40,305 bases of DNA from Patescibacteria group bacterium (GTDB lineage Bacteria > Patescibacteriota > Microgenomatia > JAADGY01). Below, piece after piece: positions 6,427 to 28,143 of the stretch. Position 1 is the first letter of the stretch, and each line of letters opens with the position of its first letter. Both the position numbers and the translations under genes were made by a program. The DNA lies in contig JAJRVN010000050.1 of NCBI GenBank assembly GCA_024277325.1, positions 1 to 40,305 of the forward strand, read 5' to 3'. Under the pieces are notes generated by a model that saw only the letters and a program-made list of their open reading frames with translations, was not told the origin of the DNA and did no database searches.

Positions 6427-8229
6427 ATGTATCATAAAAATATGATAAAGAAAATCCTGTTTTTCAGCCTTGTCATTCTGGTTGCCTTTGGTTGGCGACA
6501 GATATCTTGGGCTGATGAGATCGAGGATATCCAAAAACAAATCGACTCTTTAAGCCGCCAGCTGGAGATGAGCCGACAGGCCACCCGCCCACTTGAGTCA
6601 ACCCTCAACAAACTTAACTCCCAAATCGCCACTATCAGAAAAGAAATCAGCGGCATCACTAATCAACTTAAAAAAGAAGAGTTGGCAATTAAGCGGTTGG
6701 AGCTGTCCATAAGCCAAAAACAAGAAACCATAGACAAGCAAGAGCAACAATTAAGAACCCAAATCAATTACCACTACCGCTTAAGCCGAAGCATCTCGCC
6801 TTTGGGTTTGGTTTTTAACCAAGGCTTAAACCAGCAGACTCTATCTATACTGGCACTGGAGGAAAAAATTATGTTGTCGTTCCAAAACAAAATTCAAAAC
6901 TTATCCGCCAACATCGTCTCTATTAAAAAAACCAAGATAGAGATCCAAAAAAGGAAAAAAGATTTGGCCACAAAACAAAAGAAGTTAGCGGCTTTAAGAG
7001 CTCAACTTGACAAACAGGCCAATTTTTTCGCCAAGGAAATCAAGGGGGCCAAAGCTTACCAGGCCATGCTCAAAAACAAAATCACAGAATTATCTTTAAG
7101 ACAAAAGCAGTTACTGGCGGCTAAAACCGGGCTGTTCTCAACCAGTGTCGGCGATGTACCTTTAAGCGGCGACCCTCATGCCCGGGTCGACTATGATCCG
7201 GGTTTTCGGCCGGCTTTCGCTGCTTTTTCCTTCGGCGCCCCCCACCAAAAAGGTATGAGCCAATACGGCGCTTACGGACGGGCCAAAAAAGGCCAAAATT
7301 ATGAGCAGATTTTAAAGGCTTACTATGGCAATGTTCGGATTGAAACCGTTGACACCAACTTTAGTATCTCGACCGACCAAGGGGTTAAGCCTTTCGAAGA
7401 CAACTACCTTAAAGGCATTGCTGAGATGCCAACCAAGTGGGCTGATGACGGCGGTTTTGAAGCTTTAAAGGCCCAGGCCATTGCCGCCCGTTCCTACGCC
7501 TTAGCCTATACCGGCTGGCGAATGAATAGCCGAAGCCTCAAAAAATCAATCTGCACTAGCGAAAACTGTCAAGTTTATCACTCATCCAAGGCCGCCAATC
7601 CCGGCCGTTGGGGCGATGCTGTCAATGAAACTCGGGGTAAAATTTTGGTTAGTAATAACTCCAACGAGGTTGTCAACTCTTGGTATGCCTCAACCTCTGG
7701 CGGCTACCAAAAATCATACACTTCCCTCGGCCACTCAACACCGGGGTTTTGGGATACCGAGTGCGGCAACCAAAACTGCTGGACGCCGGATGCTTATGAA
7801 AAAATCGCCGGCTCACCTTGGTTTTACAAAGGTTGGTATAAAACTCGAGGCGGCAAATCATGCGGCCGGTCTCATCCATGGCTGACTCAAGATGAGATGG
7901 CTGATATCATCAACGCCGCCATTGTCTTAACCAACAACCAAGGGGATAAACCTCACATTTATCAACTGGATAGCTGTTTCGGCTCAAATCCTGATGTTTG
8001 GGATAAAAATCGAATGCGCCAAGAAGCTGACAAATACGGCGGGGCAGTGTCCCAAATCAACGGTGTCAAGGTAACCTATTCGACCGGCGGCTACACCAAT
8101 CAAGTAACTTTTTCGACCGACAAAGGCGACAAGACTTTTGACGGTGGATTATTTAAGCTGGTTTTTAACTTAAGGGCTCCCGGGGCTATACATATCAAAA
8201 GCAGATTGTATAATATAGAGAAGAAATGA
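6427..8229 (+). CDS. SpoIID/LytB-domain peptidoglycan-remodelling protein with an N-terminal membrane anchor and a long coiled coil
   Basis: N-terminal hydrophobic segment, ~200 aa of heptad-like Q/K/E/L-rich sequence, then SpoIID hallmarks: MSQYGAYGRAKKGQNYEQILKAYYGN and YLKGIAEMPTKWADDGGFEALKAQAIAARSYALAYTG. The ORF is also open from GTG 6424. Confidence 0.85.
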   Translation: MYHKNMIKKILFFSLVILVAFGWRQISWADEIEDIQKQIDSLSRQLEMSRQATRPLESTLNKLNSQIATIRKEISGITNQLKKEELAIKRLELSISQKQETIDKQEQQLRTQINYHYRLSRSISPLGLVFNQGLNQQTLSILALEEKIMLSFQNKIQNLSANIVSIKKTKIEIQKRKKDLATKQKKLAALRAQLDKQANFFAKEIKGAKAYQAMLKNKITELSLRQKQLLAAKTGLFSTSVGDVPLSGDPHARVDYDPGFRPAFAAFSFGAPHQKGMSQYGAYGRAKKGQNYEQILKAYYGNVRIETVDTNFSISTDQGVKPFEDNYLKGIAEMPTKWADDGGFEALKAQAIAARSYALAYTGWRMNSRSLKKSICTSENCQVYHSSKAANPGRWGDAVNETRGKILVSNNSNEVVNSWYASTSGGYQKSYTSLGHSTPGFWDTECGNQNCWTPDAYEKIAGSPWFYKGWYKTRGGKSCGRSHPWLTQDEMADIINAAIVLTNNQGDKPHIYQLDSCFGSNPDVWDKNRMRQEADKYGGAVSQINGVKVTYSTGGYTNQVTFSTDKGDKTFDGGLFKLVFNLRAPGAIHIKSRLYNIEKK

Positions 8230-8783
8230 GAAATTTTATTAAGTTTTTGTTAATTGCATCCATATTCATTCTCACCTTTTCTGGAGGACAACCTACTTAT
8301 GGTTATCAACAAACAAAATATTGGGATTGTTTTGTAGATCAAAAAGGAATCTTCCATTTCACAACAAACAAGGCAATCAGTAATCTTGATAAGGACAATT
8401 ACAAAGTTAACGATTTTTGGGTAGAAGACGATTCCAACATAAAACAAATTAAGTATACATTTAATATTCAATTGATGTTAGATGGTGGAGAAGTTGTTAA
8501 GGGGGCGATATTAAGACATTTGAGTAATGATGTTTGTTCTTTTAATAATCTGGATAATTTAAACAGCTTACCCGAACCGACCAAACAAGCTGGTTATAAT
8601 GACGACGGGGAAAATAATGCTGATAACGAAATAATTATCTCTGATGTTTATGTCGACACAAACTCTCGCAGTGTGGTTGCTAACGCCAATACAGACCTCA
8701 CCCAAACCGACGCTAGGGTAAGAGTATATATAGATGATACAGTAGAATTATTTAATTTCACTGATTTAGGCTGTATAATATAG
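8226..8783 (+). CDS. Secreted or membrane-anchored hypothetical protein (185 aa)
   Basis: The start overlaps the upstream stop (ATGA). The N-terminal signal-like segment is FIKFLLIASIFILTFSGG. Coding sequence is low in GC. No family recognised. Confidence 0.6.
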   Translation: MRNFIKFLLIASIFILTFSGGQPTYGYQQTKYWDCFVDQKGIFHFTTNKAISNLDKDNYKVNDFWVEDDSNIKQIKYTFNIQLMLDGGEVVKGAILRHLSNDVCSFNNLDNLNSLPEPTKQAGYNDDGENNADNEIIISDVYVDTNSRSVVANANTDLTQTDARVRVYIDDTVELFNFTDLGCII

Positions 8784-8798
8784 AGAAACAAAAACAAA

Positions 8799-9905
8799 AT
8801 GAAGCAGATAAAATATTTATTAATCACCTTTTTGGTTATTGTTAGTTTTATATCTTTTCCCAAGATACAACCTATTTATGCTCTTGATCAAGATGGTTTT
8901 ACTTGTGATATTCCGCATGATTATAAAACCTTGGTGGTGGGTGGTCGCGTAGACTTAGAACAATATATAGAATCTGTCCAAGTTTCTCTCTTACCAAAAG
9001 ATATGGGTGACTCGATTAATCTCAGATTAACATGGTCAGATGTTATTAGGTCTACTAAGATACATGGCGCAGATTGGTGGGAAGCTTCTTTTAGATTATC
9101 AGACAAGCTCCAAGGTGGCGTCAATAACTACGTCCTAGGGTCGTGTAAAATAAAAACTAAGAACCAACCAACTCCAATCAAGGTCGACACAGGTTATGTT
9201 CAGGGGGCTTGTAGTGTAGATAGTGGTGGCTTTTTTTACGTAACATTAAACAAAGACACCAAACTAAATCAAGAAGATTATTTTTTCTCTTTGCTTTTTA
9301 AAACACAATCTGTCCCAAGCCAAAAAGTTAAGGTTTTTATTAAATCAAAAAAAGAGAGGGGTAATTCTATTGAATACAAACTAGCATTTAACACAGGCCG
9401 TTCCCTGCCGGCATCATCAGCTATTCAAAGTATTAGTTTAAAAAACCAATATTACACAGTATGTAAGGTTGATGGTATTGCTGACAACATACAACTAAAT
9501 ACAATAACCACCCTTCCCAACGACCCGTGCAGTCTCTTACCACCAAAGGAGGCTGATCAATGCCGCGAGTGTATGTATGAGGGAACTGACGAAAACGACT
9601 ATACCAAACCAAAAGGCCAGGTCTGGACCGGTCTGGGTTGTGTCAAGATAAAAACCACCGGCGATCTTTTTGGTGAAGCTTTTAAGATCTTGTCTAATAT
9701 TATTGGTGGCATCGCCATGTTGCTTTTAATCTATGCCTCGATTTTATTTATGGTGTCTGGAGGTGATGCTGAAAAGATTAAGAAGGCCAAATCCATCCTT
9801 ACCGCAGTTATCACCGGCATTTTGTTTGTCATTTTTTCTATCATGATCATGAAATTTATCGGCTTAACTCTGCTTGAGCTACCAACCTTAACTAACTCTT
9901 CTTAG
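8799..9905 (+). CDS. Surface protein with a Cys-containing ectodomain and a C-terminal VirB2/TrbC-like (T4SS pilin-like) two-helix module
   Basis: Signal-like N-terminus. The C-terminus IGGIAMLLLIYASILFMVSGGDAEKIKKAKSILTAVITGILFVIFSIMIMKFIG is two hydrophobic helices around a GD-x-E/A-KI...K loop. The same module ends the next gene. Confidence 0.55.
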   Translation: MKQIKYLLITFLVIVSFISFPKIQPIYALDQDGFTCDIPHDYKTLVVGGRVDLEQYIESVQVSLLPKDMGDSINLRLTWSDVIRSTKIHGADWWEASFRLSDKLQGGVNNYVLGSCKIKTKNQPTPIKVDTGYVQGACSVDSGGFFYVTLNKDTKLNQEDYFFSLLFKTQSVPSQKVKVFIKSKKERGNSIEYKLAFNTGRSLPASSAIQSISLKNQYYTVCKVDGIADNIQLNTITTLPNDPCSLLPPKEADQCRECMYEGTDENDYTKPKGQVWTGLGCVKIKTTGDLFGEAFKILSNIIGGIAMLLLIYASILFMVSGGDAEKIKKAKSILTAVITGILFVIFSIMIMKFIGLTLLELPTLTNSS

Positions 9906-9952
9906 TTTTTTTAGTTTGTAAATGCAACATTTTTAGTCGTATATAATAAGCT

Positions 9953-10660
9953 ATGAAAAAAATAAGCCTCAACTTCATAAGAATTACAATTCTAGCTTTT
10001 ATTCTTATGAGTTTGCAATTGCCTTTTGCTTACGCCGACACCCCGACAATAACACCAACGCCAACGCCAACCCCGACAATAACACCAACGCCAACTATTG
10101 CTTATCCACCAACCAACACACCTACTCCACTTTTTACACCGCCAACGCCAACTCCGACATCATCTTTAAACCAGCCAACTCATTTTCCAACAGCAACATC
10201 CATTCCAACCCCAACCCCAACCCCAACCATTCCTCCTTTGCCTCTAGTAACACTGACTCCTACTCCGACATTTACACCTGCTCCCATTCAAAGCCCAACT
10301 GCTCCACCACCTTCGCCAACATCTCAACCATCGAGTGTTTGGGACGATATTACTTATCAAAACACTCCTTTGGCCGGCTTGCCAAAAAAACTTAGTTTCG
10401 CCGGGGCTAACTACACCGGCTTGCCGGCGGCCCTAATCAACCTTATCTTTCCTCACCTTTTGATCTTTGCCGGTATCGTCGTCTTTGCCTATTTACTCTT
10501 TGGCGCCTACCGCTTTATGACCGCTTTTGGCGATGAAGCCAAAATCACCCAGGGCAAAAAAATCATCACCAACTCCATCGTTGGGTTTATCATTTTATTT
10601 ACCTCTTTCTGGCTGATTCAGCTGCTGGAAATCATCTTAAGAATACAAGTGGTCAGCTGA
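9953..10660 (+). CDS. Pro/Thr-rich surface protein with a C-terminal VirB2/TrbC-like (T4SS pilin-like) two-helix module
   Basis: Signal-like N-terminus and ~110 aa of TPTPTPT-type linker. The C-terminus [54 protein letters not shown] is paralogous to the C-terminus of the preceding protein. Confidence 0.55.
10041..10095 (+). repeat. Direct tandem repeat (30-bp period) inside the Pro/Thr linker
   Basis: CCCCGACAATAACACCAACGCCAAC occurs at 10041-10065 and again at 10071-10095. It encodes TPTITPTPT units. Confidence 0.85.
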
Positions 10661-10681
10661 TTGGCTCTTGTGGAACAGATA

Positions 10682-11770: not shown

Positions 11771-12415
11771 ATTGGAACTAAATATCTTAAGTCGTAGAGA
11801 CTTTATAATCGCCTCTAATTCCTGGCTGGCTTTGCCGGCTTGGTTGTCGCGGTTGACTATAAGATAATCAAATTCCCCAAACCGCTTCATTTCCCACACC
11901 GCCATCTTCAAATTCCAGTTTAGCCAATCGTCTTTTGGATTGCGATTTTTCAATCTTTTAACCAAAGACCCCATCGACGGCGGGGTGATAAAAACGGTAG
12001 CTGAATAAGGAAACATTTGCTTAACTTTGTCTTTGATGTTTTTGATCCCTCGAACATCCAATCGCCAAATGACATCGTGGCCAGAAGATAGGGTTTGTTC
12101 CAAGTGTTTTTTTTGACCACCGTATAGATTGCCCCGGTACTCCACCCACTCAAAAAAGGCGTCTTCGGCTATTAACTTTTCAAATTCATGCCTGGAAATA
12201 AAGTGGTAGTCTTTACCATCAACTTCTCCGGGGCGCTTGGCCCTTGTCGTCGTTGTCACAAAGTGGTTTATGTTGGGGTTGCGGGATAAGACCAAATTCA
12301 TAAGGGTGTCCTTGCCGGCTCCCGACGGGCCTGAAATCAAAACCAAAACCCCTTGATTAGATTGCCGGTCAATCCACTGGCTCAAATCTTTATTAATCGG
12401 CTCAACTGAATTCAT
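11756..12415 (-). CDS. gmk: Guanylate kinase
   Basis: LVLISGPSGAGKDTL and TTTRAKRPGEVDGKDYHFISRHEFE. The 3' end overlaps the ychF 3' end by 15 nt (convergent). Confidence 0.9.
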   Translation of the reverse strand: MNSVEPINKDLSQWIDRQSNQGVLVLISGPSGAGKDTLMNLVLSRNPNINHFVTTTTRAKRPGEVDGKDYHFISRHEFEKLIAEDAFFEWVEYRGNLYGGQKKHLEQTLSSGHDVIWRLDVRGIKNIKDKVKQMFPYSATVFITPPSMGSLVKRLKNRNPKDDWLNWNLKMAVWEMKRFGEFDYLIVNRDNQAGKASQELEAIIKSLRLKIFSSNLSAD

Positions 12416-12432
12416 GCTTAATTGTAAGGAAA

Positions 12433-12933: not shown

Positions 12934-12936
12934 AAG

Positions 12937-19829: not shown

Positions 19830-22800
19830 ATGGCTGAATTCTCAACCGCTCGACCCAAGGTTTTAGAACCATTCAAACATGCTTGTTGGCGACAAAAACA
19901 GACCATAGACGACTGGCTTGAGTGTTTAAATAAGTTGCTTTTTATCATCGAGGCCGAGATCAATGATTTCAAATTAACCATCGTCTTTCAAAAAGAGAAA
20001 AAACAAACTACCCTTAAAAAAAGCGCCCGGCCGGTTTTAATCAAAAGCTTTGTTAGGTTTCTGCACCGATCGTTTGCCAACCGACTGCCTTTTGTCGTGA
20101 CTCCGCCACCGGTCGTTGATCGTGATCAAGATTTATCCATAAGCCAACTTGATAGTTTATCCAGTTTGGTCCAGGAAGTTTTGGTCATCTTATACCGAGC
20201 CTCCTTTCTGGCCCACCTGGCTGAAGAAAGAATGTCTTTGGCCGACATCTTGGCGGCGGTGCCGGATTTACCCGCTATTGATTCGGGTTTGATAAATAAA
20301 ATAATCAGCGATTATAAGCTTGCCATCGATAACCAGCTTGCCGGTGGCGATAACGCCCCCAGCCAATTGGTCGATACTACTAACTTTAAAATCAATCTTT
20401 CGCCCGACCAGTCCGACCGCGTCGTTTGGGACAAGCCTATCTTAAAACAAGATGACCAAGGTAACTCTATCCTGGACATTCCGCCACTGTCCAGCCAAGA
20501 TTTTGGTCACTTGGTGCGCTTATCCCAAAACCTCGAGCAATCGCTTAAGGCAACTATCTTGATCGATGGGATCGGCCTGTCAGGCCCTCCCACTTCCCCA
20601 GAAGAAACCACCTTGTTTAAACTAGCTGGCAGTATCAGTCAAAAAATCTCAAGCCGGGTTTTGTCTGAGGTCATCTCCTCGGGAACAAGCTGGGTAGATC
20701 CTGATTTTATTTCCAGCCGCATAGCTCAAGAAACAATTAGAGAATTAACCTGGCATTTTAAGCAAGATGGTTTAAATAAGTTAAGTAATCAAGGTTGGTT
20801 GGTTTTAAGGAGTTCTTTTAAAAAACATCCGGAGGTTTTATTTTCTCGATTTGAAGCTGCTATTCAAAAAACCATTGTCCCTAAAGCACCGACCGAGGCC
20901 GGCCCAGCCCCAACCGGGCCAAGCCCCGCCCCGCCACCAGCCCAAATCGGCGAATTTCCATTGACGGAAACGGACCGGGGTGGGGAGCTAACCCACCAGG
21001 CCGCTATAGAAGACAATATTGTTGGCTTGCGAGTTTTGGCCAAGGCGGCCCGATTAACCAAGGCGGCTCCAACCAACCCAAAGGACGTTAAACAGATTAT
21101 CAGGCGGCAGGTTTATTCCCAGTTAGTCCAGGCGGCCCGATTAACAAAAGAGAGTAGTTTGGATAAACCTCAGCTTGAGGCTTTGGAAAGAGTGGCTGAC
21201 AAAGCCGCCAACTATCTGGTTTATATCAGTCCGGCCGATCCTGTACTTAACCTTAGACCAAAACAAGCGTACTTGGAATTAATCAGCCAAGAACCTGTGT
21301 TACAAGACATAATTTCTCCGGAAAAGATCGAATCGACCATTGAATTGGTCGGTGACATTAACCGCAAAACCCTAACCTCAAGCGCTGCGCCGATGATAAG
21401 ATCTGCCGCAAAACTGGGCCTTGTTGAACAAATCCTTATGCGCCGGGTTATAAGCAAGCACTATCAGTCAATCATTAATAGCGGAACTGATCCCACCGCT
21501 CTTTATATTGGCTTGTCAACCCCATTAGAAACGCTTCAGGGGCGATTGGATTGGATCGGTGGAGGTTCGCCTATTAACATATTAGGCCTTTCTATACCAA
21601 CGGCTCCGGCATTAACCGAGGCTGACCCCGGCTTTGCCAGGCTCAAGTCTTTAACTCAACAGATTGCCGAACTTAACCGACGAGGAATCTTGGACGACTC
21701 AGACCTTCCTCTTATCATCAGATGGCTCAGGTTAAAAAACAGAATGCGCCAGTCTTATGACGATAAAAAGAAAGCTGTCAAAAATATCATCCCCCACAAC
21801 ACAACCATTATTTTGAATAAGGTTAAAAAGAAGGTTGGCGGCTCGACTGTGGTCCAAAAGATCTTGGACATCTACCAACATCCTTTTGTTGAAAAAATCG
21901 TTGGCGATGCGACTGATTTCCTGTCTGTCCCCAGAAAGACATTGGCTGAGAAAATCAACTTTCATCTTACAAACAAATCTGGCTGGCTGCAAAAGAAGAT
22001 AGAGACCAAGCTCGAAGCTGACAAGACTTCGTTCTTTCGGATCTTTGATACGTCTGAACCTTTTAAAAAACGATTAAAACTCTTTTTTAAGGGAGAAAAT
22101 GGTTGGTTTAAGGTCCACATTGTCGATCCTAGTTTAAAAAAACACGGTGACAGCTCGGTTTTTGCCTTGGGCCAGCGCGGCCTAAACTGGCTCCAAGAAA
22201 GATGGCAGGGGGTCAAAAAAAGCAAAGCCTATAAGTTGGGTTTAAAGGTTAAAAAAAAGATTTTAGCCTGGCAAAAAAAATTCAAAAAAGTTAAAGACCA
22301 AATCAATAAGATTATCGGCAGGGTAGAAAAATACATCGAGCTTTTATCACCCAAGAACCTGTTAAGGAAAGCGCTTGTTACCACTATAAGGCGACTTGGC
22401 CAGTTGTCGGTCAAGTTATTAGCCAAGCTTGGCGTTAAGGTTTCTTTGTCGGCGACCGGGGTCGGCACTGTCGTAGCCATCGCCATGTTGGCTGTTGATT
22501 TTTTCAGCTTGTTTAAAAAACACTGGCAAGAAATACTCTCGGTCCTGATCGGATTGCTGTGGTATCTATTGTCTAATCTGGCTGCTTTTATCGGCGCCGT
22601 GGTCGGGGCCGGCCTCTTCTCGGTTATTGCCCCCTTTTTAGGCCCGGCAGCTCCGGTTATCGGCGGTTATCTTGGTTGGCAAGTTGGCAGCGGTATCGGC
22701 AATTTAATCAGTGCTGTCAAGTCATTTTTTAAAGGCCTTAGTAACTGGTCGTCCTCTATTGGTTCTGGAGCCGGGGTCGGTCCGGGAACCGCCATTGGTG

Positions 22801-23960
22801 TCGGGGTCGGGGCTGGGACCGCTTCTTTAATTTTGGTAAACGCCATCATCAGTCCGGCCTTTTTACTTCCTGGCGAATACCAAAACACGCCGGGGTCCAA
22901 ATATATTAAGGTTTACAAGATAGCCGAAGTCAATGATGTCTATAAAAAAACCGCCGGCCCGTCATACCCTATGCAGCTAGCCAATTTGGCCGCTGAACGC
23001 TCGATTAAAATTTCATACAAAGTCATCATCGCCGCGGTTGACCGGCCGGTAACCATCAACCAGGTTCAAGATAAAATTACCATTTACACCAAAGATGGCG
23101 ATCAGGTTAAGACAACAAACCAAACCATCGAGCTTGTCTTGGCCAACACCAATCAAAAACCAGATACCCCAATCGAGATTGCTACCGAAAACCCGGTTGA
23201 GCTAGTTGGTAGTTTTAGGCTGGGGCCAAAGTATAAAGACAGTCGGTTGCTTAATCAAGTGGATGTCGGCGGCTTGGTTGATGGCAATCAGGAATCCAAG
23301 TCCGACGTCTTTGAGGTCTTGGTCGGCGACGCCCCTAAAAGCAGTTGCTCTCAAACGGCCGCTAGGTCGCAAGTTTTAACCGAAAAACTCTATCGTTGTG
23401 AGGCGGGCGCTCCCCCAAGCCAGGCCCCCAACTGCTACTGTCCAACAACTAATCAGCGAGGTTATTACACCGACACTTTTCATTGTGGCCAAAAACCACC
23501 CTTTGCCAACTATCTTCACTCGGCTGACCCAACCGTCGAAGATATCGAAGATAATTATGTTCAGTGCACCGAATTTGTCCACCAAGCCTTTGAGGATGTC
23601 TTCGGCCAATCCACTAACGCTATTTGCAGCAAGGGTTCGCCTGGCGGGTTTTTGGGCCATGCCGGCCAATGGCTGTCAAGGGCGTCGCGTTTTTGCCCCG
23701 ACCAGTTCGACATCATCCAAAACAACGGCACAAGCGACCCTATGCCTGGAGATATTTTAGTTTTTTCCGGTGGCAACGAATACGGCCACGTGGCTATAGT
23801 CAGCCTTGATGGCAGCGACCCGACTGGCAATGTTGTTCGTTTTTGTGGGGCCAACACACCGAAAAAATGTTATAACATTGCTAAGGGGCAGGTTTGGCAA
23901 AGCCCGTTTAACAGCTTAAAATTAGTGGGGTGGTTAAGGTATAAGTTTTGCCAGCAATAG
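19830..23960 (+). CDS. Giant membrane protein (1376 aa) with a C-terminal CHAP-family peptidoglycan hydrolase domain
   Basis: ~850-aa signal-less N-terminal region with a Pro-rich linker (PKAPTEAGPAPTGPSPAPPPAQ). Lys-rich segment. Gly-rich multi-helix hydrophobic block (~nt 22440-22870). C-terminal CHAP motifs: YVQCTEFVHQAF (Cys codon 23565-23567) and PGDILVFSGGNEYGHVAIV (His codon 23787-23789). Confidence 0.75.
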   Translation: MAEFSTARPKVLEPFKHACWRQKQTIDDWLECLNKLLFIIEAEINDFKLTIVFQKEKKQTTLKKSARPVLIKSFVRFLHRSFANRLPFVVTPPPVVDRDQDLSISQLDSLSSLVQEVLVILYRASFLAHLAEERMSLADILAAVPDLPAIDSGLINKIISDYKLAIDNQLAGGDNAPSQLVDTTNFKINLSPDQSDRVVWDKPILKQDDQGNSILDIPPLSSQDFGHLVRLSQNLEQSLKATILIDGIGLSGPPTSPEETTLFKLAGSISQKISSRVLSEVISSGTSWVDPDFISSRIAQETIRELTWHFKQDGLNKLSNQGWLVLRSSFKKHPEVLFSRFEAAIQKTIVPKAPTEAGPAPTGPSPAPPPAQIGEFPLTETDRGGELTHQAAIEDNIVGLRVLAKAARLTKAAPTNPKDVKQIIRRQVYSQLVQAARLTKESSLDKPQLEALERVADKAANYLVYISPADPVLNLRPKQAYLELISQEPVLQDIISPEKIESTIELVGDINRKTLTSSAAPMIRSAAKLGLVEQILMRRVISKHYQSIINSGTDPTALYIGLSTPLETLQGRLDWIGGGSPINILGLSIPTAPALTEADPGFARLKSLTQQIAELNRRGILDDSDLPLIIRWLRLKNRMRQSYDDKKKAVKNIIPHNTTIILNKVKKKVGGSTVVQKILDIYQHPFVEKIVGDATDFLSVPRKTLAEKINFHLTNKSGWLQKKIETKLEADKTSFFRIFDTSEPFKKRLKLFFKGENGWFKVHIVDPSLKKHGDSSVFALGQRGLNWLQERWQGVKKSKAYKLGLKVKKKILAWQKKFKKVKDQINKIIGRVEKYIELLSPKNLLRKALVTTIRRLGQLSVKLLAKLGVKVSLSATGVGTVVAIAMLAVDFFSLFKKHWQEILSVLIGLLWYLLSNLAAFIGAVVGAGLFSVIAPFLGPAAPVIGGYLGWQVGSGIGNLISAVKSFFKGLSNWSSSIGSGAGVGPGTAIGVGVGAGTASLILVNAIISPAFLLPGEYQNTPGSKYIKVYKIAEVNDVYKKTAGPSYPMQLANLAAERSIKISYKVIIAAVDRPVTINQVQDKITIYTKDGDQVKTTNQTIELVLANTNQKPDTPIEIATENPVELVGSFRLGPKYKDSRLLNQVDVGGLVDGNQESKSDVFEVLVGDAPKSSCSQTAARSQVLTEKLYRCEAGAPPSQAPNCYCPTTNQRGYYTDTFHCGQKPPFANYLHSADPTVEDIEDNYVQCTEFVHQAFEDVFGQSTNAICSKGSPGGFLGHAGQWLSRASRFCPDQFDIIQNNGTSDPMPGDILVFSGGNEYGHVAIVSLDGSDPTGNVVRFCGANTPKKCYNIAKGQVWQSPFNSLKLVGWLRYKFCQQ

Positions 23961-23969
23961 GATGTAAAA

Positions 23970-24566
23970 ATGACAATTAAAAAAAAATTAATTATCGGCC
24001 TTATTAGCTTGATTGTTTTGATTTTTGGTCTTTGGTGGCGATATTCTTATAACCAACCCCGAATCGTTGATTACTTTCCCAGTCGGGGAGTTGGTCTGTT
24101 TGATTTTGTCAGAGTTGAGTTTTCTCGTCCCATATCAGCCAAGATGGTTCGCCTTGAGGTCAGACCGCCATTGAAGATAAGTGTCAAACAACAAGCCGCG
24201 GCTAACACCATTAGGTGGCGGGTCATTGGCTTGCCAAAAGAAAAAACAACCTACAACTTCAGTGTTTTTTATAAAAACAAGCTTATTAAGACTTGGCAAA
24301 TGACGCCTCCCCCAGGATCGACCGGGGTCGGTATTTATCCGGTCGGGTTTGAAAAAGGGTTGGAAGATTATGTTAAAAGAACGCCGATATTGCAAAACAT
24401 ACCAACCAACAATCCTTATTTTAGGGTTAAGTATTATTCTGAATCTTATTTAGCCATCTATCTTTTGGGTCAAGATAAAAACAGGTCGATGGCCGAGGCC
24501 AAAAGGTGGCTTGATAGCTTGCCGGGGGGGTCGCGCACCAACCTCAAAATCGATTGGGTTAAATAA
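23970..24566 (+). CDS. Bitopic membrane protein with an Ig-like (SbsA/Big_5-like) ectodomain; function unknown
   Basis: N-terminal transmembrane segment LIIGLISLIVLIFGLWW. The pattern FPSRGVGLFDFVRVEFSRPISAKMVRLEVRPPL...TTYNFSVFY resembles bacterial Ig-like surface domains. An AGGA ribosome-binding site overlaps the upstream stop. Confidence 0.5.
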   Translation: MTIKKKLIIGLISLIVLIFGLWWRYSYNQPRIVDYFPSRGVGLFDFVRVEFSRPISAKMVRLEVRPPLKISVKQQAAANTIRWRVIGLPKEKTTYNFSVFYKNKLIKTWQMTPPPGSTGVGIYPVGFEKGLEDYVKRTPILQNIPTNNPYFRVKYYSESYLAIYLLGQDKNRSMAEAKRWLDSLPGGSRTNLKIDWVK

Positions 24567-24607
24567 AAAACTTGAGGTATTACCTTTGATCATAGTATCA
24601 TTAAAAT

Positions 24608-25597
24608 ATGCCAGTTAAAGAGCACCCGGTTCCGCAAAATATTACCAGCTACCGCTTTAGGTTGGTGGGTAGCATGACCCTACAGCAATTCTCCGAATTG
24701 GCTGGTGGTTTTGGGTTGGGTTTTATTCTTTGGAAGCTGCCGATTTACCCCATCATCAAGATGCCTTTGGCTGTTGCGGCCGCAGTTTTAGGGATAATGA
24801 TGGCCTTTGTTCCCATAGAGGATCGGCCACTTGATATGTGGTTAACCGCGTTTGTCAAGCATATTTATAGGCCAACTTTGTACTTGTTTAAGACCAGGCC
24901 GACCCCACCGCCTTTTTCTCTTTATCAACCACCAAAAAACAGCGGTCAGAAAAATGACCTTGATGGTGTGAAGGCCATTGACCCTAATCAATATCTAAGC
25001 TCGTTTACTACTAACAAAACCTCTCCTGTCACCGACTATGTCAATCGCTTATTTGATGAGGAAAAAGTCAAGCCTGTTAAAAGTCGAGCCAAACAAGTGC
25101 AACCATTGGCAAAGCCCATTGTTAAGAAACTGCCGATCTCTCCGATTACACCCAGTACCCCAACTAATCAAATCAAGGCCATTAAGTCGAGGCCGATTAT
25201 GCCAAAGACAAAAACAATCAAAACAGCAGCCGGGCCGGGCCGGTTTAAGGCTAAGAGGGTTAAAAAACCGGTGGTAGCTCAAAAACCAACCTTCGAGCCC
25301 AGCCTACCAAAGACCAAGCTTAAAAACACGCCTGTGGGCATGGTGGCTGACCTCGCCGGCAAACCGATCGTCGGCGCCATCGTTGAGGTTAAAAACGTTA
25401 AGTCCGACATTCCTTTAAGGGTGACAAAAACCAACATCTTGGGACAGTTCTTTTTTGGTAATCCCCTGCCGACCGGGGAATATTTAATAGAAGCTGAGCA
25501 CGCAGCTTATGCCTTTAAACCTGTCAAGATAAGTGTTAAAAACAAGGTTATTTTACCGATCAAGATCACCGGCCAAAAACAGGTGGAAAATGTATAA
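24608..25597 (+). CDS. PrgI-family (VirB3-like) membrane protein fused to a Lys/Pro-rich linker and a carboxypeptidase-regulatory-like beta-sandwich
   Basis: The N-terminus VPQNITSYRFRLVGSMTLQQFSELAGGFGLGFILWKL...MMAFVPIEDRPLDMWLTAFVKHIYRPTLYLF follows the PrgI/TcpE-type pattern. The C-terminus GMVADLAGKPIVGAIVEVKNVKSDIPLRVTKTNILGQFFFGNPLPTGEYLIEAEHAAYAFKPVKISV is CarboxypepD_reg-like. Confidence 0.6.
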   Translation: MPVKEHPVPQNITSYRFRLVGSMTLQQFSELAGGFGLGFILWKLPIYPIIKMPLAVAAAVLGIMMAFVPIEDRPLDMWLTAFVKHIYRPTLYLFKTRPTPPPFSLYQPPKNSGQKNDLDGVKAIDPNQYLSSFTTNKTSPVTDYVNRLFDEEKVKPVKSRAKQVQPLAKPIVKKLPISPITPSTPTNQIKAIKSRPIMPKTKTIKTAAGPGRFKAKRVKKPVVAQKPTFEPSLPKTKLKNTPVGMVADLAGKPIVGAIVEVKNVKSDIPLRVTKTNILGQFFFGNPLPTGEYLIEAEHAAYAFKPVKISVKNKVILPIKITGQKQVENV

Positions 25598-25605
25598 TTA
25601 AGATA

Positions 25606-26316
25606 ATGACAAACCCAAAATCAATTGCTATCATCGGTCGCACCCAAGATGTCATCCATGTTAAAAACGTTGTTGATAACTTGGCGGTACTTAAGGACAA
25701 CACCTGTGTTCTTATTTTGGAAGTCGGCGCCATCAACTTCGACCTTCTGTCCGAAGAAGAGCAAGAAACCATTATCTTTGCCTATTCGGGTCTGTTAAAT
25801 TCCCTTTCTTTCCCTGTCCAAATCTATACCCGATCACAAAAGAAAGACTTGTCCAATTACCTGGTTTTTCTTGATTCAAAGATCAAAACCGTGAATAATC
25901 AGATTCTCAAAAAAAGGCTTTTGGACTATAAAAACTTCGTTTACCGCCTGGTAAAGGAAAAAAACGTCCTAACCAAAAAGTTTTACCTTATTATTTCCTA
26001 TAAATATTTCTCACCTCAAGTTGTCCCGACTAAATTTAATTTATTCGACTTGTTTTCCGGTAAAAAAAACAAACCAGCCAACTCGATTCCAGCCGAAAAA
26101 ATCGTCGAGCGAGCCAAAAACCACCTCATCCCTAAAAGAGACCATTTAATAAGGCAGTTATCAAGGATCGGCCTGCCCTCAAGACAACTAAGCTCTTCTG
26201 AAATCGTCAAGCTTTTCCACCACATCTATAACCCCGACCATCCGCTCAAGGTTATCAGTAGTCAAGAATACCTGACTACGTTGGTCAGCACCTCGAAAAA
26301 ACCAGGCCTTAGCTAG
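25606..26316 (+). CDS. Hypothetical protein (236 aa), possibly related to the pre-ATPase N-terminal region of VirB4/TraC-class proteins
   Basis: No P-loop. DVIHVKNVVDNLAVLKDNTCVLILEVGAINFDLLSEEEQETIIFAYSGLLNSLSFPVQIYTRSQKKDLSNYL loosely parallels the N-terminal region of the convergent VirB4-like protein. The similarity is weak and judged by eye. Confidence 0.4.
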   Translation: MTNPKSIAIIGRTQDVIHVKNVVDNLAVLKDNTCVLILEVGAINFDLLSEEEQETIIFAYSGLLNSLSFPVQIYTRSQKKDLSNYLVFLDSKIKTVNNQILKKRLLDYKNFVYRLVKEKNVLTKKFYLIISYKYFSPQVVPTKFNLFDLFSGKKNKPANSIPAEKIVERAKNHLIPKRDHLIRQLSRIGLPSRQLSSSEIVKLFHHIYNPDHPLKVISSQEYLTTLVSTSKKPGLS

Positions 26317-26325
26317 TGGTTAATC

Positions 26326-28143
26326 TTATTGTTTTGCTTCTTGTTTTTGTTTGAGTATCTCTTTGGGTTTCGTGGTTATGATTTTGTGCTCTTCGGGGGA
26401 AGCAACTATTTTTATGGCCACATGGTTAGAGCCGGCAAAAAAGATACCTTCGCCGATCCCGGCCGAAAGCAATAACTTCCTTTCCCCTCTGGATAAATAG
26501 AAGGTTTTTGCTATCTTGTCAATTGCCGGCGGCGATTGCTTCATTAGTAGTTGAATGGCTGAGTTATTAATTATCGACGATCCGTAAGCTGAACCTAAAA
26601 AGTCCTCGACATCTTGGGTTATGGTGGTCACTCCCAGGTAATACTTCCTTGCTCGCTTGGTGATCGATCTTAAAAACCGGGCCGATCCGGCGTATTGCAT
26701 CAAGTACCAGGCCTCATCAACAACCAACAGCCTCTTTTTAAACCGCTTCCTAACCTCGTTCCAAATAAAGTCCAAGATTATAAACATGGCTGCTGGGCGC
26801 AACTCGTCCTCAACCCCTCTTATGGAAAAAACCGTCAGCGGCGACGACATGTCGATGTTTGACGGAGCGTTAAAGATGTCGGCCAAGCCGCCCTTAATAA
26901 ACCTCTCCATTCTCAATCCAAGCTTTCGGCCGGTCTCGGTTTCGTAACCGATTAAAACCTTGTAAAGATCTTCCATTAATGGAGGTTTTTTACTCTGACT
27001 GGTTGGGTCGGGGGTTATGCCGTAGGATTTATAGGTCCTAACAATGGCTCGGTCAATCAGGGCAGACTCTTCTGGTGACAACTTGCCCATGATCACCTCC
27101 ATTAGCGAGTGTAAAAACATCACTTTTTGACCCAAAACATCCTCGTCCTCAATTTTATTAACTGATAAATCAAATGGGTTGATTTTGTTCACTGAGTTTT
27201 TAGAGAAGTCAAAGTAATTACCTTGGTTTACTTGGGAAAGCAGCTTGTATTCATCTTCGGGATCGATGATAATCACGCTCGTATCCAAAAGCAAAGACCT
27301 TAAAACCTCGAGTTTGACCGCGTAAGACTTGCCGGCGCCAGATGTGGCAAAAACCGTCATATTGGCATTTTCCAAGGAAAAGCGATCAAAAATAACTAGT
27401 GACTCATTGTGTTCGTTAATCCCGTACATAACCCCCTTGTCATCAGAAAGCTCTGATGAGGTAAACGGAAAGGTGGTCGCTAGTGAGGTTGTGTCCATGT
27501 TTCTTTTAATGTCTAAAATGTCTTTGCCTATGGGGATAGTCGTGTTAAAACCATCAAACATTTGTAAGGTCGCCCGTTTAGCCACTACCATAATCGAGCC
27601 GAGTGTTGAGATCACCTGTTCCGAAACCACCTTAAGCTCTTTAAGGTTTTGGGCATAAACCGTGATGTATAAGCCAAATAAGAAAAACCTCTCCATGCCT
27701 TTAACTAGCTGTTCTTGTAATGAGCGGGCGTCTTCTAATTTTGCTTGCGTCCCCGGATCGACCGCTTTACCCCGTTGTAGATTGTTGGTTATTTCTGCCT
27801 CCATTTCGGCAATCTTCCGCCTCAGGTCGTCTAAAACAGCCCTGCCTTCGACCGGTTGGATATGCATGCTGACGTCGATTGTGTGTTGAAAGTTAATCAG
27901 CGGTATCAACCAGTTCGAGGAAACGTATCTTGGGTACCCAGAAACGAACAGGACTTGGGCATAAACACCGCCGATCTTGAGGTAATTAAAGTCTTCTTCT
28001 ATGGCCGGCGGGGCAATAACGTCTTGAAGGTCAACAACCCCTTTGGCCAACGCCTGCATCACTTGTCGCCGACTGTCTTCGCCGACTTGGTCAACTACTT
28101 TCTTCGGCTTGTTTTTTGACTTAAAAAACAAAGGCAACTTCAT
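26326..28143 (-). CDS. virB4: VirB4/TrbE-class type IV secretion ATPase
   Basis: 605 aa. Walker A VFATSGAGKSYAVK (~27322-27345); Walker B LLVVDEAWYLM (~26706-26735); C-terminal TQDVEDF and FFAGSNHVAIKIVASPEE motifs typical of VirB4-like/DUF87 ATPases. Confidence 0.85.
   Translation of the reverse strand: MKLPLFFKSKNKPKKVVDQVGEDSRRQVMQALAKGVVDLQDVIAPPAIEEDFNYLKIGGVYAQVLFVSGYPRYVSSNWLIPLINFQHTIDVSMHIQPVEGRAVLDDLRRKIAEMEAEITNNLQRGKAVDPGTQAKLEDARSLQEQLVKGMERFFLFGLYITVYAQNLKELKVVSEQVISTLGSIMVVAKRATLQMFDGFNTTIPIGKDILDIKRNMDTTSLATTFPFTSSELSDDKGVMYGINEHNESLVIFDRFSLENANMTVFATSGAGKSYAVKLEVLRSLLLDTSVIIIDPEDEYKLLSQVNQGNYFDFSKNSVNKINPFDLSVNKIEDEDVLGQKVMFLHSLMEVIMGKLSPEESALIDRAIVRTYKSYGITPDPTSQSKKPPLMEDLYKVLIGYETETGRKLGLRMERFIKGGLADIFNAPSNIDMSSPLTVFSIRGVEDELRPAAMFIILDFIWNEVRKRFKKRLLVVDEAWYLMQYAGSARFLRSITKRARKYYLGVTTITQDVEDFLGSAYGSSIINNSAIQLLMKQSPPAIDKIAKTFYLSRGERKLLLSAGIGEGIFFAGSNHVAIKIVASPEEHKIITTKPKEILKQKQEAKQ

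What the first reader, a model, noticed from the sequence alone, without database searches (positions are those of the whole stretch)
6427..28143. Chromosomal, relaxase-less, monoderm-type T4SS-like system interleaved with housekeeping genes
The translations support several T4SS-type parts. There is a VirB4/TrbE-class ATPase (26326-28143; Walker A GAGKS, Walker B LLVVDEAW) and a PrgI/VirB3-like protein (24608-25597). A polytopic VirB6/TrbL-like candidate lies at 13890-15386. Two proteins end in the same VirB2/TrbC-like two-helix module (8799-9905 and 9953-10660). Two wall-remodelling enzymes are present: a SpoIID-like protein (6427-8229) and a CHAP domain at the C-terminus of 19830-23960. I see no relaxase, no VirD4/FtsK-like coupling ATPase, no integrase and no flanking tRNA or direct repeats. 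The only other P-loop proteins in the window are ychF, gmk and dnaA. The parts are interleaved with ychF, gmk and rplY and abut dnaN-dnaA, so this does not look like ICE or plasmid cargo. It looks like a domesticated apparatus whose substrate (DNA uptake, pilus/adhesion, or effector delivery to a host cell) is unknown. T4SS-like genes are generally known in reduced-genome bacteria, but this gene set, and especially its giant partners, has no assigned mechanism that I know of.
Basis: partly seen in the sequence, partly recalled or inferred. Interest (0 to 1): 0.85.

Follow-up and report, generated by a model that had tools for sequence, protein, structure and literature searches.

The report
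Patescibacterial chromosomal type IV secretion locus
This is the chromosomal, relaxase-less, Gram-positive-type type IV secretion system found in most ultrasmall Patescibacteria (here a Microgenomates genome); the parts are real, but the system was already described in 2023-2025 and its cargo is still unknown.

Summary
HMMs support the VirB4 ATPase, the PrgI/VirB3-like protein, two T4SS_pilin modules, the SpoIID domain and the CHAP domain. The polytopic 498-aa protein has no HMM hit, but its predicted fold matches VirB6 (TrwI) best.

The window is a whole 40.3-kb contig of a Microgenomates-type patescibacterium. The locus sits beside oriC (dnaA-dnaN-rpmH). The window holds no relaxase, coupling protein, integrase or tRNA.

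This system is published: Quiñonero-Coronel 2025 described it phylum-wide, and Wang 2023 showed the Saccharibacteria version is essential for epibiotic growth. The finding is therefore a new member of a known kind.

New detail from this work:
- virB4 is inverted in this small lineage and now lies downstream of dnaA-dnaN.
- The CHAP giant and the 198-aa Ig-like protein form a module that recurs across Microgenomates.
- The 1413-aa giant has only five homologs among 1.84 billion representative proteins, and every one whose context I could see is T4SS-linked.
- That giant fills a conserved position after virB6 that is occupied by unrelated large soluble proteins in all 24 related loci where it is visible.
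- Both pilins carry unusual N-terminal extensions.

The mechanism (protein export versus import of host material) remains inferred.

The parts
26326..28143 (-). VirB4-type ATPase (605 aa) that lacks the usual N-terminal domain. It is inverted relative to the usual gene order and lies 76 bp downstream of dnaN on the same strand.
   Evidence: NF045971 at 400 bits, covering model positions 178-735 of 752, and PF19044 at E 3.9e-27. PDB 4AG5 at E 1e-47. Walker A and B motifs in the translation. Orientation compared across loci.
25606..26316 (+). TrsD/TraD-like protein (236 aa), equivalent to a detached VirB4 N-terminal domain. It is convergent with virB4, with 9 bp between the two stop codons.
   Evidence: NF041427 TrsD E 5.3e-7; NF045975 VirB4_plasma positions 104-235, E 4e-10; NF045971 positions 1-122. 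Found next to virB4 in 75 of 80 loci.
24608..25597 (+). PrgI/VirB3-like membrane protein. It has a Pro/Lys-rich linker and a C-terminal CarboxypepD_reg-like beta-sandwich domain.
   Evidence: PF12666 at 28.5 bits (cut-off 27); PF13620 at E 3e-6. Present in 72 of 80 loci. The same domain fusion occurs in L081 and L085.
23970..24566 (+). Bitopic 198-aa protein: an N-terminal TM helix, a Big_5-type Ig-like domain and a small C-terminal domain. It is the conserved partner of the hydrolase giant.
   Evidence: An iterated profile finds 21 homologs in the loci. At 19 of these the gene directly upstream is an ORF of at least 300 aa, and most of those have the CHAP-giant architecture. PF13205 hits 12 of 22 family members, and the family profile hits the LdtMt2 Ig domains at E 5e-5.
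19830..23960 (+). 'Giant B' (1376 aa): an N-terminal part of about 860 aa with no signal peptide (inferred cytoplasmic), a cluster of TM helices (about residues 867-1007), a conserved post-TM domain of about 190 aa, and a C-terminal CHAP peptidoglycan hydrolase. It is the VirB1 analogue.
   Evidence: CHAP at E 1.5e-10. TM map. An iterated profile finds the TM-plus-post-TM core in 29 further ORFs in the related loci, all next to virB4 or prgI. Relatives carry CHAP, Peptidase_C39_2 or M23 at the C-terminus. 26% identity to the sister contig.
15392..19633 (-). 'Giant A' (1413 aa): no signal peptide and only a weak C-terminal hydrophobic tail (1385-1403). Residues about 740-1400 form a conserved core, and the N-terminal half is variable. 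It occupies a conserved position convergent with the virB6-like gene.
   Evidence: No homolog by word-indexed search of 5.8e9 proteins. Five homologs in an exhaustive HMMER search of 1.84e9 representatives. Their contexts are T4SS-linked: L081, L084 and L085. No Pfam, PDB or Foldseek match. Slot analysis.
13890..15386 (+). VirB6-like polytopic membrane protein (498 aa, about 7 TM helices), directly downstream of rplY.
   Evidence: AF2 model with mean pLDDT 73 and a helical core mostly above 90. The top five Foldseek hits are R388 TrwI/VirB6. Homologs occur within 10 kb of virB4 in 24 of 80 loci. No HMM hit.
9953..10660 (+). VirB2-like pilin 2 (235 aa): a signal peptide, a Pro/Thr-rich linker of about 130 aa, and a two-helix pilin module.
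   Evidence: PF18895 at 31.3 bits (cut-off 26.6); NF045849 at E 3e-5. Length compared with relatives.
8799..9905 (+). VirB2-like pilin 1 (368 aa): a signal peptide, a Cys-containing globular extension of about 260 aa, and a two-helix pilin module.
   Evidence: PF18895 at 29.6 bits (cut-off 26.6). It is the longest of the 36 pilin-module ORFs in the sample, whose median is 117 aa.
8226..8783 (+). Secreted 185-aa protein of unknown function. Its start overlaps the end of the SpoIID-like gene, and it lies upstream of the pilins. Membership of the system rests on operon position only.
   Evidence: Signal-peptide-like N-terminus. No Pfam, NCBIfam or PDB hit. No homolog in the loci.
6424..8229 (+). 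SpoIID/LytB-domain wall-remodelling protein with a signal/TM helix and an N-terminal coiled coil of about 200 aa. It is the first gene of the tightly packed SpoIID-185aa-pilin-pilin-ychF string. Its link to the T4SS is by adjacency only.
   Evidence: PF08486 at 56.5 bits; TIGR02669 at 99.6 bits (cut-off 83.3). Not found within 10 kb of virB4 in the 80 loci.
28220..30828 (-). dnaN (28220-29332) and dnaA (29464-30828): chromosomal context, co-directional with and upstream of virB4.
   Evidence: Pfam. Synteny in 61 of 80 loci.
30829..30992 (.). dnaA-rpmH intergenic region with a DnaA box (TGTGGATAA, 30872-30880); the probable oriC.
   Evidence: Sequence read. The cumulative GC-skew minimum falls at about 28-30 kb.

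Best explanation
The region encodes the Patescibacteria-clade type IV secretion system, a chromosomally fixed derivative of monoderm (MPF-FATA-type) conjugation machinery. The genome is a Microgenomates-type ultrasmall bacterium.

Shown:
- A VirB4 ATPase split into a TrsD-like N-domain protein and a 605-aa ATPase.
- A PrgI/VirB3-like membrane anchor.
- A VirB6-like polytopic protein.
- A membrane-anchored CHAP hydrolase (VirB1 analogue) with an Ig-like bitopic partner.
- Two VirB2-like pilins.
- A location next to oriC, with no relaxase, coupling protein or integrase on the contig.

Inferred:
- The ATPase, VirB3 and VirB6 form a cytoplasmic-membrane translocon.
- The CHAP giant, perhaps helped by the SpoIID-like enzyme, opens the cell wall.
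- The pilins build or decorate an extracellular tube. Their N-terminal extensions would face outwards as adhesin-like domains.
- The machine does not conjugate DNA. It mediates contact-dependent transfer of macromolecules between the epibiont and its host cell.

My preferred direction is export of proteins onto or into the host. The large, soluble, fast-evolving protein encoded convergently after virB6 (here the 1413-aa giant) is the best candidate substrate or host-specificity factor. The direction and the cargo are the weakest steps.
For: - Component identities.
- Taxon and phylum-wide distribution: all 8000 candidate proteins scored reached E<=1e-10, and the 120 listed include Microgenomates/Patescibacteria MAG proteins at 60-79% identity. 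583 confirmed loci in GTDB species genomes.
- Monoderm affinity: the best plasmid matches are Streptomyces, Bacillales and Clostridia of the CD1110 family, at 30-38% identity.
- Fixed chromosomal position: TrsD in 75, PrgI in 72, and dnaN and dnaA in 61 each of 80 loci within 10 kb of virB4. DnaA box and GC-skew minimum beside the locus.
- Core-gene behaviour: against the sister contig, VirB4 is 77% identical, DnaA 59%, DnaN 46%, TrsD 57%, PrgI 45%, the Ig partner 33%, giant A 30% and giant B 26%.
- The hydrolase-plus-Ig module is conserved.
- Giant A's homologs sit beside pilin, PrgI, CHAP or VirB6-position genes in independent contigs.
- A large convergent gene without TM helix or signal peptide follows virB6 in 24 of 24 loci. 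The 38 proteins found between virB6 and prgI fall into 28 BLAST clusters.
- Literature: the same system is described in PMC12102498. It is essential for epibiotic growth, independently of ComEC, in Southlakia epibionticum (PMC10633639; PMC12857230). Tubular structures that may be T4SS pili were seen at a patescibacterium-host interface (bioRxiv 10.64898/2026.06.21.733656).
Against: - There is no experimental evidence for this organism or for any Microgenomates.
- The VirB6 assignment rests on Foldseek E-values of 0.02-0.14 and TM scores of about 0.45, not on a significant E-value.
- No VirB8-like component was found.
- The SpoIID gene and the 185-aa gene are linked to the T4SS only by adjacency, and they are absent near virB4 in the 80 relatives.
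- Nothing shows that giant A is secreted. It has no known effector signal, and its close homologs end in a hydrophobic tail that could make it a membrane-anchored cytoplasmic scaffold instead.
- A T4CP or relaxase could lie elsewhere in the genome.
- Export versus import cannot be distinguished from sequence.
Confidence: 0.85

Rival explanations
1. Import machine. The T4SS and its pilus act as a conduit that takes up host macromolecules (RNA, DNA or other cytoplasmic material). This would work like the ComB or Ced DNA importers, but for feeding rather than for secreting effectors.
For: - VirB4 gives weak hits to the archaeal DNA-import ATPases CedB and CedD (38 and 26 bits).
- A 2026 preprint reports host-RNA uptake by a cultivated patescibacterium. 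It shows tubular structures at the interface that may be T4SS pili, and it notes that VirB4 is monophyletic in the phylum.
- The FEMS review speculates about uptake through the pilus.
- These genomes lack nucleotide biosynthesis (literature).
Against: - The CedB and CedD scores are far below their family cut-offs of 700 and 600.
- No nuclease, nucleic-acid-binding or ComEC-like gene lies in the locus.
- In S. epibionticum the T4SS is essential although ComEC-dependent DNA uptake is not.
- The preprint states that the uptake mechanism is unresolved.
- Import does not explain the hypervariable soluble giants.
Confidence: 0.3
2. A working conjugation or DNA-export system whose relaxase and coupling protein are encoded elsewhere in the genome.
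For: - The window is only one 40-kb contig, so the rest of the genome is unseen.
- T4CP homologs occur in most Patescibacteria genomes, usually far from virB4 (PMC12102498).
- The closest non-patescibacterial VirB4s belong to conjugative elements.
Against: - Relaxases were found in only 103 of 3,035 Patescibacteria genomes, and rarely near virB4.
- The T4CP homolog is not essential in S. epibionticum while the T4SS is.
- The locus is vertically fixed beside oriC in 61 of 80 species.
- VirB4 is more conserved than DnaA between the sister contigs.
- Pilins are atypical for monoderm conjugation.
Confidence: 0.07
3. A decaying remnant of an integrated conjugative element, scattered by rearrangement among housekeeping genes and no longer functional.
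For: - The T4SS genes are interrupted by ychF, gmk and rplY.
- virB4 is inverted.
- In a related MAG the virB6-like gene and virB4 lie on different contigs.
Against: - All genes are intact long ORFs, including two of more than 4 kb.
- VirB4 is the most conserved protein of the region between the sister contigs, at 77%.
- The gene set recurs across 80 species-level genomes.
- There is no integrase, tRNA or att repeat.
- GC content is uniform at 0.36-0.47, with no island signature.
Confidence: 0.03

Closest known systems
Patescibacteria-clade T4SS (Quiñonero-Coronel et al. 2025, PMC12102498), including the essential SEML1_0006-0019 cluster of Southlakia epibionticum (Wang et al. 2023, PMC10633639)
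   Same: - VirB4 related to MPF-FATA.
- TrsD-like partner.
- PrgI/VirB3.
- PF18895 pilin genes in tandem.
- A wall hydrolase beside the core genes.
- No relaxase nearby.
- Chromosomal position next to dnaA and dnaN, as reported for Microgenomatia and Paceibacteria.
   Different: - virB4 is inverted and sits behind dnaA-dnaN. This is seen in only 1 of the 80 reference loci (L001) plus the separately fetched sister contig L081.
- ychF, gmk and rplY are inserted between the pilins and virB6.
- The pilins are 235 and 368 aa, against a median of 117 aa.
- The paper found VirB6 'scarce' in Microgenomatia, whereas a divergent VirB6-like family is present here.
- The passages of those papers that I read do not mention the 1413-aa partner or the variable position it fills.
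Monoderm conjugative T4SSs of the MPF-FATA class: pGO1/pSK41 Trs, pIP501 Tra, pCF10 Prg/Pcf, and the C. difficile/Tn916-like ICEs of the CD1110 family
   Same: - VirB4 passes the CD1110-family cut-off.
- TrsD homolog, as in pGO1.
- PrgI.
- A CHAP-containing VirB1 analogue like PrgK and TraG (established knowledge, cited).
- No outer-membrane core genes.
   Different: - No relaxase, T4CP, integrase or oriT-type context in the window.
- It has VirB2-like pilins, which monoderm conjugation systems lack.
- It is vertically inherited at oriC.
- VirB4 is only 30-38% identical to plasmid VirB4s.
- The hydrolase carries an N-terminal part of about 860 aa with no signal peptide.
R388 Trw / Agrobacterium VirB (MPF-T) diderm T4SS
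   Same: - The VirB6-like fold (TrwI is the best structural match).
- VirB2-type two-helix pilin modules.
- The VirB3-VirB4 pairing.
   Different: - No VirB7, VirB9 or VirB10 outer-membrane complex, and no VirB5, VirB11 or VirD4 in the window.
- Sequence similarity is undetectable for VirB6.
DNA-import T4SS relatives (H. pylori ComB; archaeal Ced)
   Same: - A relaxase-less VirB4-based machine used for something other than conjugation.
- Weak CedB and CedD hits.
   Different: - The scores are far below the family cut-offs.
- The locus holds no DNA-handling genes.
- Competence in Saccharibacteria depends on T4P and ComEC, not on the T4SS.

Membership tests
Patescibacteria-clade chromosomal T4SS (PMC12102498) | A VirB4 ATPase whose nearest relatives are patescibacterial, nested among MPF-FATA (monoderm) VirB4s. 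| tested here: met
   60-79% identity to Microgenomates/Patescibacteria MAG proteins among the 120 listed (54-78% in the 80 GTDB loci), against 30-38% to monoderm plasmid VirB4s. NF045971 at 400 bits. No formal phylogeny was built, so clade membership is by similarity only.
Patescibacteria-clade chromosomal T4SS (PMC12102498) | A TrsD-like protein (VirB4 N-terminal homolog) encoded next to virB4. | tested here: met
   25606-26316; NF041427 at E 5e-7 and NF045975 at E 4e-10. 75 of 80 loci.
Patescibacteria-clade chromosomal T4SS (PMC12102498) | A PrgI/VirB3-like protein near virB4. | tested here: met
   PF12666 at 28.5 bits, above the cut-off of 27.
Patescibacteria-clade chromosomal T4SS (PMC12102498) | VirB2-like pilin genes (PF18895/PF04956) in an array. 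| tested here: met
   Two adjacent genes, both above the PF18895 gathering score.
Patescibacteria-clade chromosomal T4SS (PMC12102498) | No relaxase associated with the cluster. | tested here: met
   No relaxase, T4CP or integrase family among the window ORFs. The rest of the genome is not available.
Patescibacteria-clade chromosomal T4SS (PMC12102498) | A chromosomal location near dnaA, dnaN and the origin (Microgenomatia/Paceibacteria pattern). | tested here: met
   dnaN lies 76 bp from virB4. DnaA box and GC-skew minimum are nearby.
Patescibacteria-clade chromosomal T4SS (PMC12102498) | Required for epibiotic growth. | not testable with these tools
   Shown only for S. epibionticum by Tn-seq.
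Conjugative MPF-FATA T4SS on an ICE or plasmid | A relaxase (MOB) and oriT. | tested here: not met
   None in the 40-kb contig.
Conjugative MPF-FATA T4SS on an ICE or plasmid | A VirD4/TcpA-type coupling ATPase. | tested here: not met
   The only P-loop proteins are VirB4, YchF, Gmk and DnaA. Genome-wide status is unknown.
Conjugative MPF-FATA T4SS on an ICE or plasmid | Mobile-element borders (integrase, tRNA target, direct repeats). | tested here: not met
   No tRNA, no integrase, no flanking repeats, and no compositional island.
Conjugative MPF-FATA T4SS on an ICE or plasmid | A VirB8-like (PrgL/TraM/TcpC) NTF2-fold protein. | tested here: inconclusive
   No sequence hit. The 198-aa bitopic protein is Ig-like rather than VirB8-like. 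The 166-aa and 185-aa proteins have no PDB hit and were not modelled.
VirB6/TrbL family | A polytopic protein of at least 5 TM helices with the VirB6 fold, encoded in a T4SS locus. | tested here: inconclusive
   About 7 TM helices. TrwI/VirB6 fills the top five Foldseek ranks at prob 0.97-1.0, but with E 0.02-0.14. No PF04610 or NCBIfam hit.

The most novel reading that the evidence does not exclude
The gene directly after virB6 in Microgenomates T4SS loci is a positionally conserved slot whose occupants differ completely in sequence. In 24 of 24 loci it holds a large convergent ORF with no TM helix or signal peptide, and most occupants are unrelated singletons. Here the occupant is the 1413-aa giant, whose family has five detectable members among 1.84 billion representative proteins. 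These proteins could be the long-sought translocated substrates or host-range determinants of the patescibacterial T4SS, diversifying in an arms race with host cells.
Probability: 0.25. Interest if true: 0.75.

Novelty: new member of a known kind. Interest (0 to 1): 0.3.

Why it matters
The patescibacterial T4SS is the only T4SS known to be essential for its owner's growth, and its cargo is an open question for a phylum that makes up a large share of bacterial diversity. This window does not change that picture; it is one more example. It does give three concrete handles for the Microgenomates branch, where published HMM surveys found VirB6 and VirB1 scarce:
- a divergent VirB6-like family;
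- a conserved module of a membrane hydrolase plus an Ig-like protein;
- a hypervariable giant-protein slot that yields testable effector candidates.

Tried and rejected
- VirB6 candidate by sequence. Pfam, NCBIfam and a 34-sequence profile against PDB sequences gave nothing. Only the fold search helped.
- Giant A homologs. The word-indexed search found none and local iterated profiles found only the sister contig. Five relatives appeared only in the exhaustive HMMER search.
- Giant A function. Pfam on all six family members, the family profile against PDB, and Foldseek on a low-confidence model (pLDDT 59) gave no credible match. Its fold remains unknown.
- Is the 198-aa protein the missing VirB8? 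Rejected: it is TM plus a Big_5 Ig-like domain.
- The conserved TM-plus-post-TM core of giant B gave no hit against PDB or Pfam.
- Are the large genes after virB6 in other loci distant homologs of giant A? The giant A profile with filters off gave only noise. BLAST clustering gave 28 clusters for 38 proteins.
- Do inverted repeats flank the virB4 inversion? None were convincing.
- Is there a terminator or promoter consensus in the dnaN-virB4 spacer? None was found, so co-transcription is only inferred.
- The SpoIID, 185-aa and 166-aa proteins have no homologs within 10 kb of virB4 in the 80 relatives. Their membership of the system is therefore unproven.
- The ICE reading was rejected.

Full report
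**What is in the window**

The 40,305-bp window is a complete metagenomic contig: its own VirB4 is recorded on a single contig of 40,305 bp. It has 36-47% GC and no compositional island. It carries no tRNA.

From left to right the genes are:
- mevalonate-pathway genes and uppS (1-5978);
- the region of the finding (6424-28143);
- dnaN, dnaA, rpmH, yidD, yidC and jag;
- three conserved unknown genes, then smpB, an unassigned 255-aa minus-strand ORF (36565-37332), a class II aminoacyl-tRNA synthetase, greA and yqeY.

A DnaA box (TGTGGATAA, 30872-30880) lies in the dnaA-rpmH spacer. The cumulative GC-skew minimum falls at about 28-30 kb. The secretion genes therefore sit directly beside the probable replication origin.

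**Checking the observation**

HMM searches confirm each named part.
- The 605-aa protein on the minus strand at 26326-28143 passes the NCBIfam cut-off for 'VirB4-like conjugal transfer ATPase, CD1110 family' (400 bits against 325). It hits PF19044, PF12846 and PF01935. Its best solved relative is the Thermoanaerobacter VirB4 C-terminal domain, 4AG5 (E 1e-47).
- 24608-25597 passes the PrgI gathering score (28.5 against 27). It also has a C-terminal CarboxypepD_reg-like domain.
- Both 8799-9905 and 9953-10660 pass the T4SS_pilin (PF18895) gathering score at their C-termini.
- The SpoIID/LytB domain (TIGR02669, 99.6 bits against a cut-off of 83.3) and the CHAP domain (E 1.5e-10) are real.
- The VirB6 candidate (13890-15386) has no HMM or PDB-sequence hit. 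I collected 37 proteins including the query itself and modelled it with a 34-sequence alignment. Mean pLDDT was 73, and the helical core from about residue 160 was mostly above 90, apart from three dips. In Foldseek against 350,542 PDB chains, the first five ranks are all TrwI/VirB6 chains of the R388 T4SS (prob 0.97-1.00, E 0.02-0.14, TM 0.42-0.47 normalised to the target). All other hits among the top ten have prob below 0.2, and two further TrwI/VirB6 chains appear lower in the list. I call this supported but not proven.

25606-26316 is a TrsD/TraD-like protein that aligns to the N-terminal part of VirB4 models. The 605-aa ATPase covers only positions 178-735 of the 752-position CD1110 model. 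VirB4 is therefore split into two polypeptides here.

No ORF of 80 aa or more in the window matches a relaxase, VirD4/FtsK, TcpA or integrase family. No att-like repeats flank the region.

**Where it comes from and how conserved it is**

VirB4 has thousands of relatives. All 8000 candidates scored reached E<=1e-10, and the 120 listed are 60-79% identical, including proteins named for Microgenomates/Patescibacteria MAGs. A scan of one genome per GTDB species returned 583 confirmed loci. The best 80 carry titles such as Curtiss-, Woese-, Shapiro-, Gottesman-, Beckwith-, Davies- and Amesbacteria; several ENA records are evidently mislabelled as Gammaproteobacteria. The best plasmid VirB4s are from monoderms (Streptomyces, Bacillales, Clostridia; annotated as CD1110 family) at only 30-38% identity.

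Within 10 kb of virB4 in the 80 loci, tblastn finds:

| Gene | Loci (of 80) |
|---|---|
| TrsD | 75 |
| PrgI | 72 |
| dnaN | 61 |
| dnaA | 61 |
| yidC | 50 |
| VirB6-like | 24 |
| rplY | 15 |

The usual order is: pilins, a large secreted protein, virB6-like (+), a large gene (-), prgI-trsD-virB4 (+), a large membrane protein, a small bitopic protein, then dnaN (-) and dnaA (-).

A sister contig (GCA_013152165.1, L081) is fully collinear with the window from smpB to the 1413-aa gene. Protein identities against it are:

| Protein | Identity |
|---|---|
| VirB4 | 77% |
| DnaA | 59% |
| TrsD | 57% |
| DnaN | 46% |
| PrgI | 45% |
| 198-aa protein | 33% |
| giant A | 30% |
| giant B | 26% |

The ATPase is thus the most conserved gene of the region, and the giants are the fastest evolving.

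**What is particular to this lineage**

- virB4 is inverted. It is convergent with trsD, with 9 bp between the stop codons, and lies 76 bp downstream of dnaN on the same strand. Among the 80 reference loci only L001 (78% VirB4 identity) shares this, as does the sister contig L081. I found no terminator-like or promoter-like consensus in the spacer and no inverted repeats at the inversion borders. Co-transcription with dnaA-dnaN is an inference.
- ychF, gmk, a 166-aa membrane protein and rplY separate the pilin genes from the virB6-like gene. The rplY-virB6 adjacency recurs in a related MAG, where virB4 is on another contig.
- The two pilins are N-terminally extended, to 368 and 235 aa. A profile of the two-helix module finds 36 ORFs in the window plus 12 related loci, with a median length of 117 aa. 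Only the two window proteins exceed 200 aa.

**The 'giant partners'**

Giant B (19830-23960) has three parts:
- about 860 residues with no signal peptide or TM helix;
- a cluster of TM helices at about residues 867-1007;
- about 370 residues after the TM cluster, inferred extracytoplasmic, ending in CHAP.

An iterated profile recovers its TM-plus-post-TM core in 29 further ORFs in the related loci, always adjacent to virB4 or prgI. At 19 of the 21 members of the 198-aa family, the gene directly upstream is an ORF of at least 300 aa, and most of these have the giant B architecture. Of ten relatives scanned, five end in CHAP, one in Peptidase_C39_2 and one in M23.

The 198-aa partner is TM plus a Big_5 Ig-like domain (12 of 22 members; the profile hits the LdtMt2 Ig domains at E 5e-5) plus a small C-terminal domain. 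It is not VirB8-like.

I read giant B as the VirB1 analogue of this branch. The published survey, using existing HMMs, found VirB1 only weakly associated with virB4 outside Paceibacteria.

Giant A (15392-19633, minus strand) has no signal peptide and only a weak C-terminal hydrophobic tail.
- A word-indexed search of 5.8 billion proteins found only the protein itself.
- An exhaustive HMMER search of 1.84 billion representatives with residues 214-1413 found five homologs.
- Their contexts are informative. One is the sister contig. One (L084) is convergent with a 495-aa gene in the virB6 position. The most distant (L085, GCA_027028625.1) follows two pilin genes. It sits beside a PrgI-CarboxypepD_reg gene, a 1238-aa CHAP giant and a 195-aa gene.
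- The family shares a conserved core at about residues 740-1400 and variable N-terminal halves.
- Pfam, a family profile against PDB, and Foldseek on a low-confidence model (pLDDT 59) gave nothing.

More generally, both virB6-like and prgI are visible in 24 related loci. In all 24, the gene directly after virB6-like is a large (379-1365 aa) convergent ORF. None of these has a TM helix or signal peptide. The 38 proteins found between virB6 and prgI fall into 28 BLAST clusters, mostly singletons, and the giant A profile hits none of them. The position is conserved while the sequence is not.

**How it most likely works**

Shown: the parts list above, its fixation beside oriC, and the absence of conjugation-specific genes on the contig.

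From established knowledge of T4SSs:
- VirB4 with VirB3 and VirB6 forms the cytoplasmic-membrane translocon.
- VirB1-type hydrolases open the wall.
- VirB2-type pilins form a helical tube with their termini on the outside.

Inferred:
- This machine builds an envelope-spanning channel with a short pilus. The unusual N-terminal pilin extensions would be displayed on its surface.
- It serves contact-dependent exchange with the host cell rather than conjugation.

I favour protein export, with the hypervariable soluble slot protein as candidate cargo or specificity factor. That pattern (a conserved machine beside a rapidly diverging large soluble partner) fits an effector or host-range arms race.

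The main rival is import of host material. It is supported by a 2026 preprint on host-RNA feeding that shows tubular structures which may be T4SS pili and by speculation in the FEMS review. Sequence alone cannot decide the direction.

**Comparison with what is known, and novelty**

The system has been described.
- PMC12102498 reports VirB4 in 2,417 of 3,035 Patescibacteria genomes, forming a clade nested in MPF-FATA.
- The same paper reports TrsD as the commonest partner, PrgI/VirB3, tandem VirB2-like pilin arrays that are especially common in Microgenomatia, rare relaxases, T4CP homologs usually far from virB4, and proximity to dnaA/dnaN in Microgenomatia and Paceibacteria.
- PMC10633639 shows the Saccharibacteria cluster is essential for growth on the host and lacks a recognisable coupling protein and relaxase.
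- PMC12857230 reviews it as a new T4SS type.

This locus is a new member of a known kind.

The increments from this work are the VirB6-like assignment in Microgenomates, the conserved hydrolase-Ig module, the T4SS linkage and rarity of giant A together with the variable slot it occupies, the virB4 inversion, and the extended pilins. These are modest, and all are computational.

**Verdict**

Novelty is low and interest is 0.3. The most novel reading still open is that the slot proteins are the translocated substrates. I give that about 25% probability; it would be of high interest if true.

Noticed in passing
window 437-484, 950-997, 6386-6410: A GC-rich palindrome, TTGTCAACCCCGGGGGTTGACAA, occurs five times; 0.12 matches to its 15-nt core are expected by chance. 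Twin copies lie upstream of ORF 515-1018, twin copies lie upstream of the IDI-2 gene at 1015, and a single copy lies just upstream of the SpoIID-like gene start. It could be a shared operator linking the isoprenoid genes with the SpoIID-pilin operon. It is absent from the 86 fetched loci.
   Followed up: partly
window 136-5978: The left end of the contig holds a near-complete mevalonate pathway: a thiolase C-terminal fragment, an OB-fold protein, IDI-2, mevalonate kinase, diphosphomevalonate decarboxylase and phosphomevalonate kinase, followed by uppS. A Woesebacteria locus (L018) also has mvd, pmk and mvk next to virB4.
   Followed up: no
window 24608-25597; L081 12988-13980; L085 6329-7360: The PrgI/VirB3-like protein is fused to a C-terminal CarboxypepD_reg-like beta-sandwich through a Pro/Lys-rich linker. 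The fusion recurs in related contigs. I did not see it mentioned in the passages I read.
   Followed up: partly
window 23970-28143 relative to oriC at about 30.9 kb: Given the inferred origin, the giant B, Ig, prgI and trsD genes are transcribed head-on to replication. After its inversion, virB4 is co-directional with replication. In the usual Microgenomates order the whole prgI-trsD-virB4 operon would be head-on.
   Followed up: no
window 32414-36124; L081 1643-5616: Three conserved genes of unknown function follow jag and are collinear in the sister contig: a 379-aa 7-TM protein, a 231-aa bPH_2 protein and a 539-aa protein. A DUF5657 gene lies among them in L081.
   Followed up: no
L002, L004, L005, L009, L012, L048 and others: Many GTDB/ENA MAG records that carry this Microgenomates-type locus are titled 'uncultured Pseudomonadales', 'Gammaproteobacteria', 'Nevskiaceae' or 'Methanoperedens'. 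These are probably mislabelled or contaminated bins.
   Followed up: no
window 6061-6264 (-): A small 67-aa ORF (MAYSYTNSRGVTYYLH...) lies in the uppS-SpoIID spacer on the opposite strand. It was not examined.
   Followed up: no
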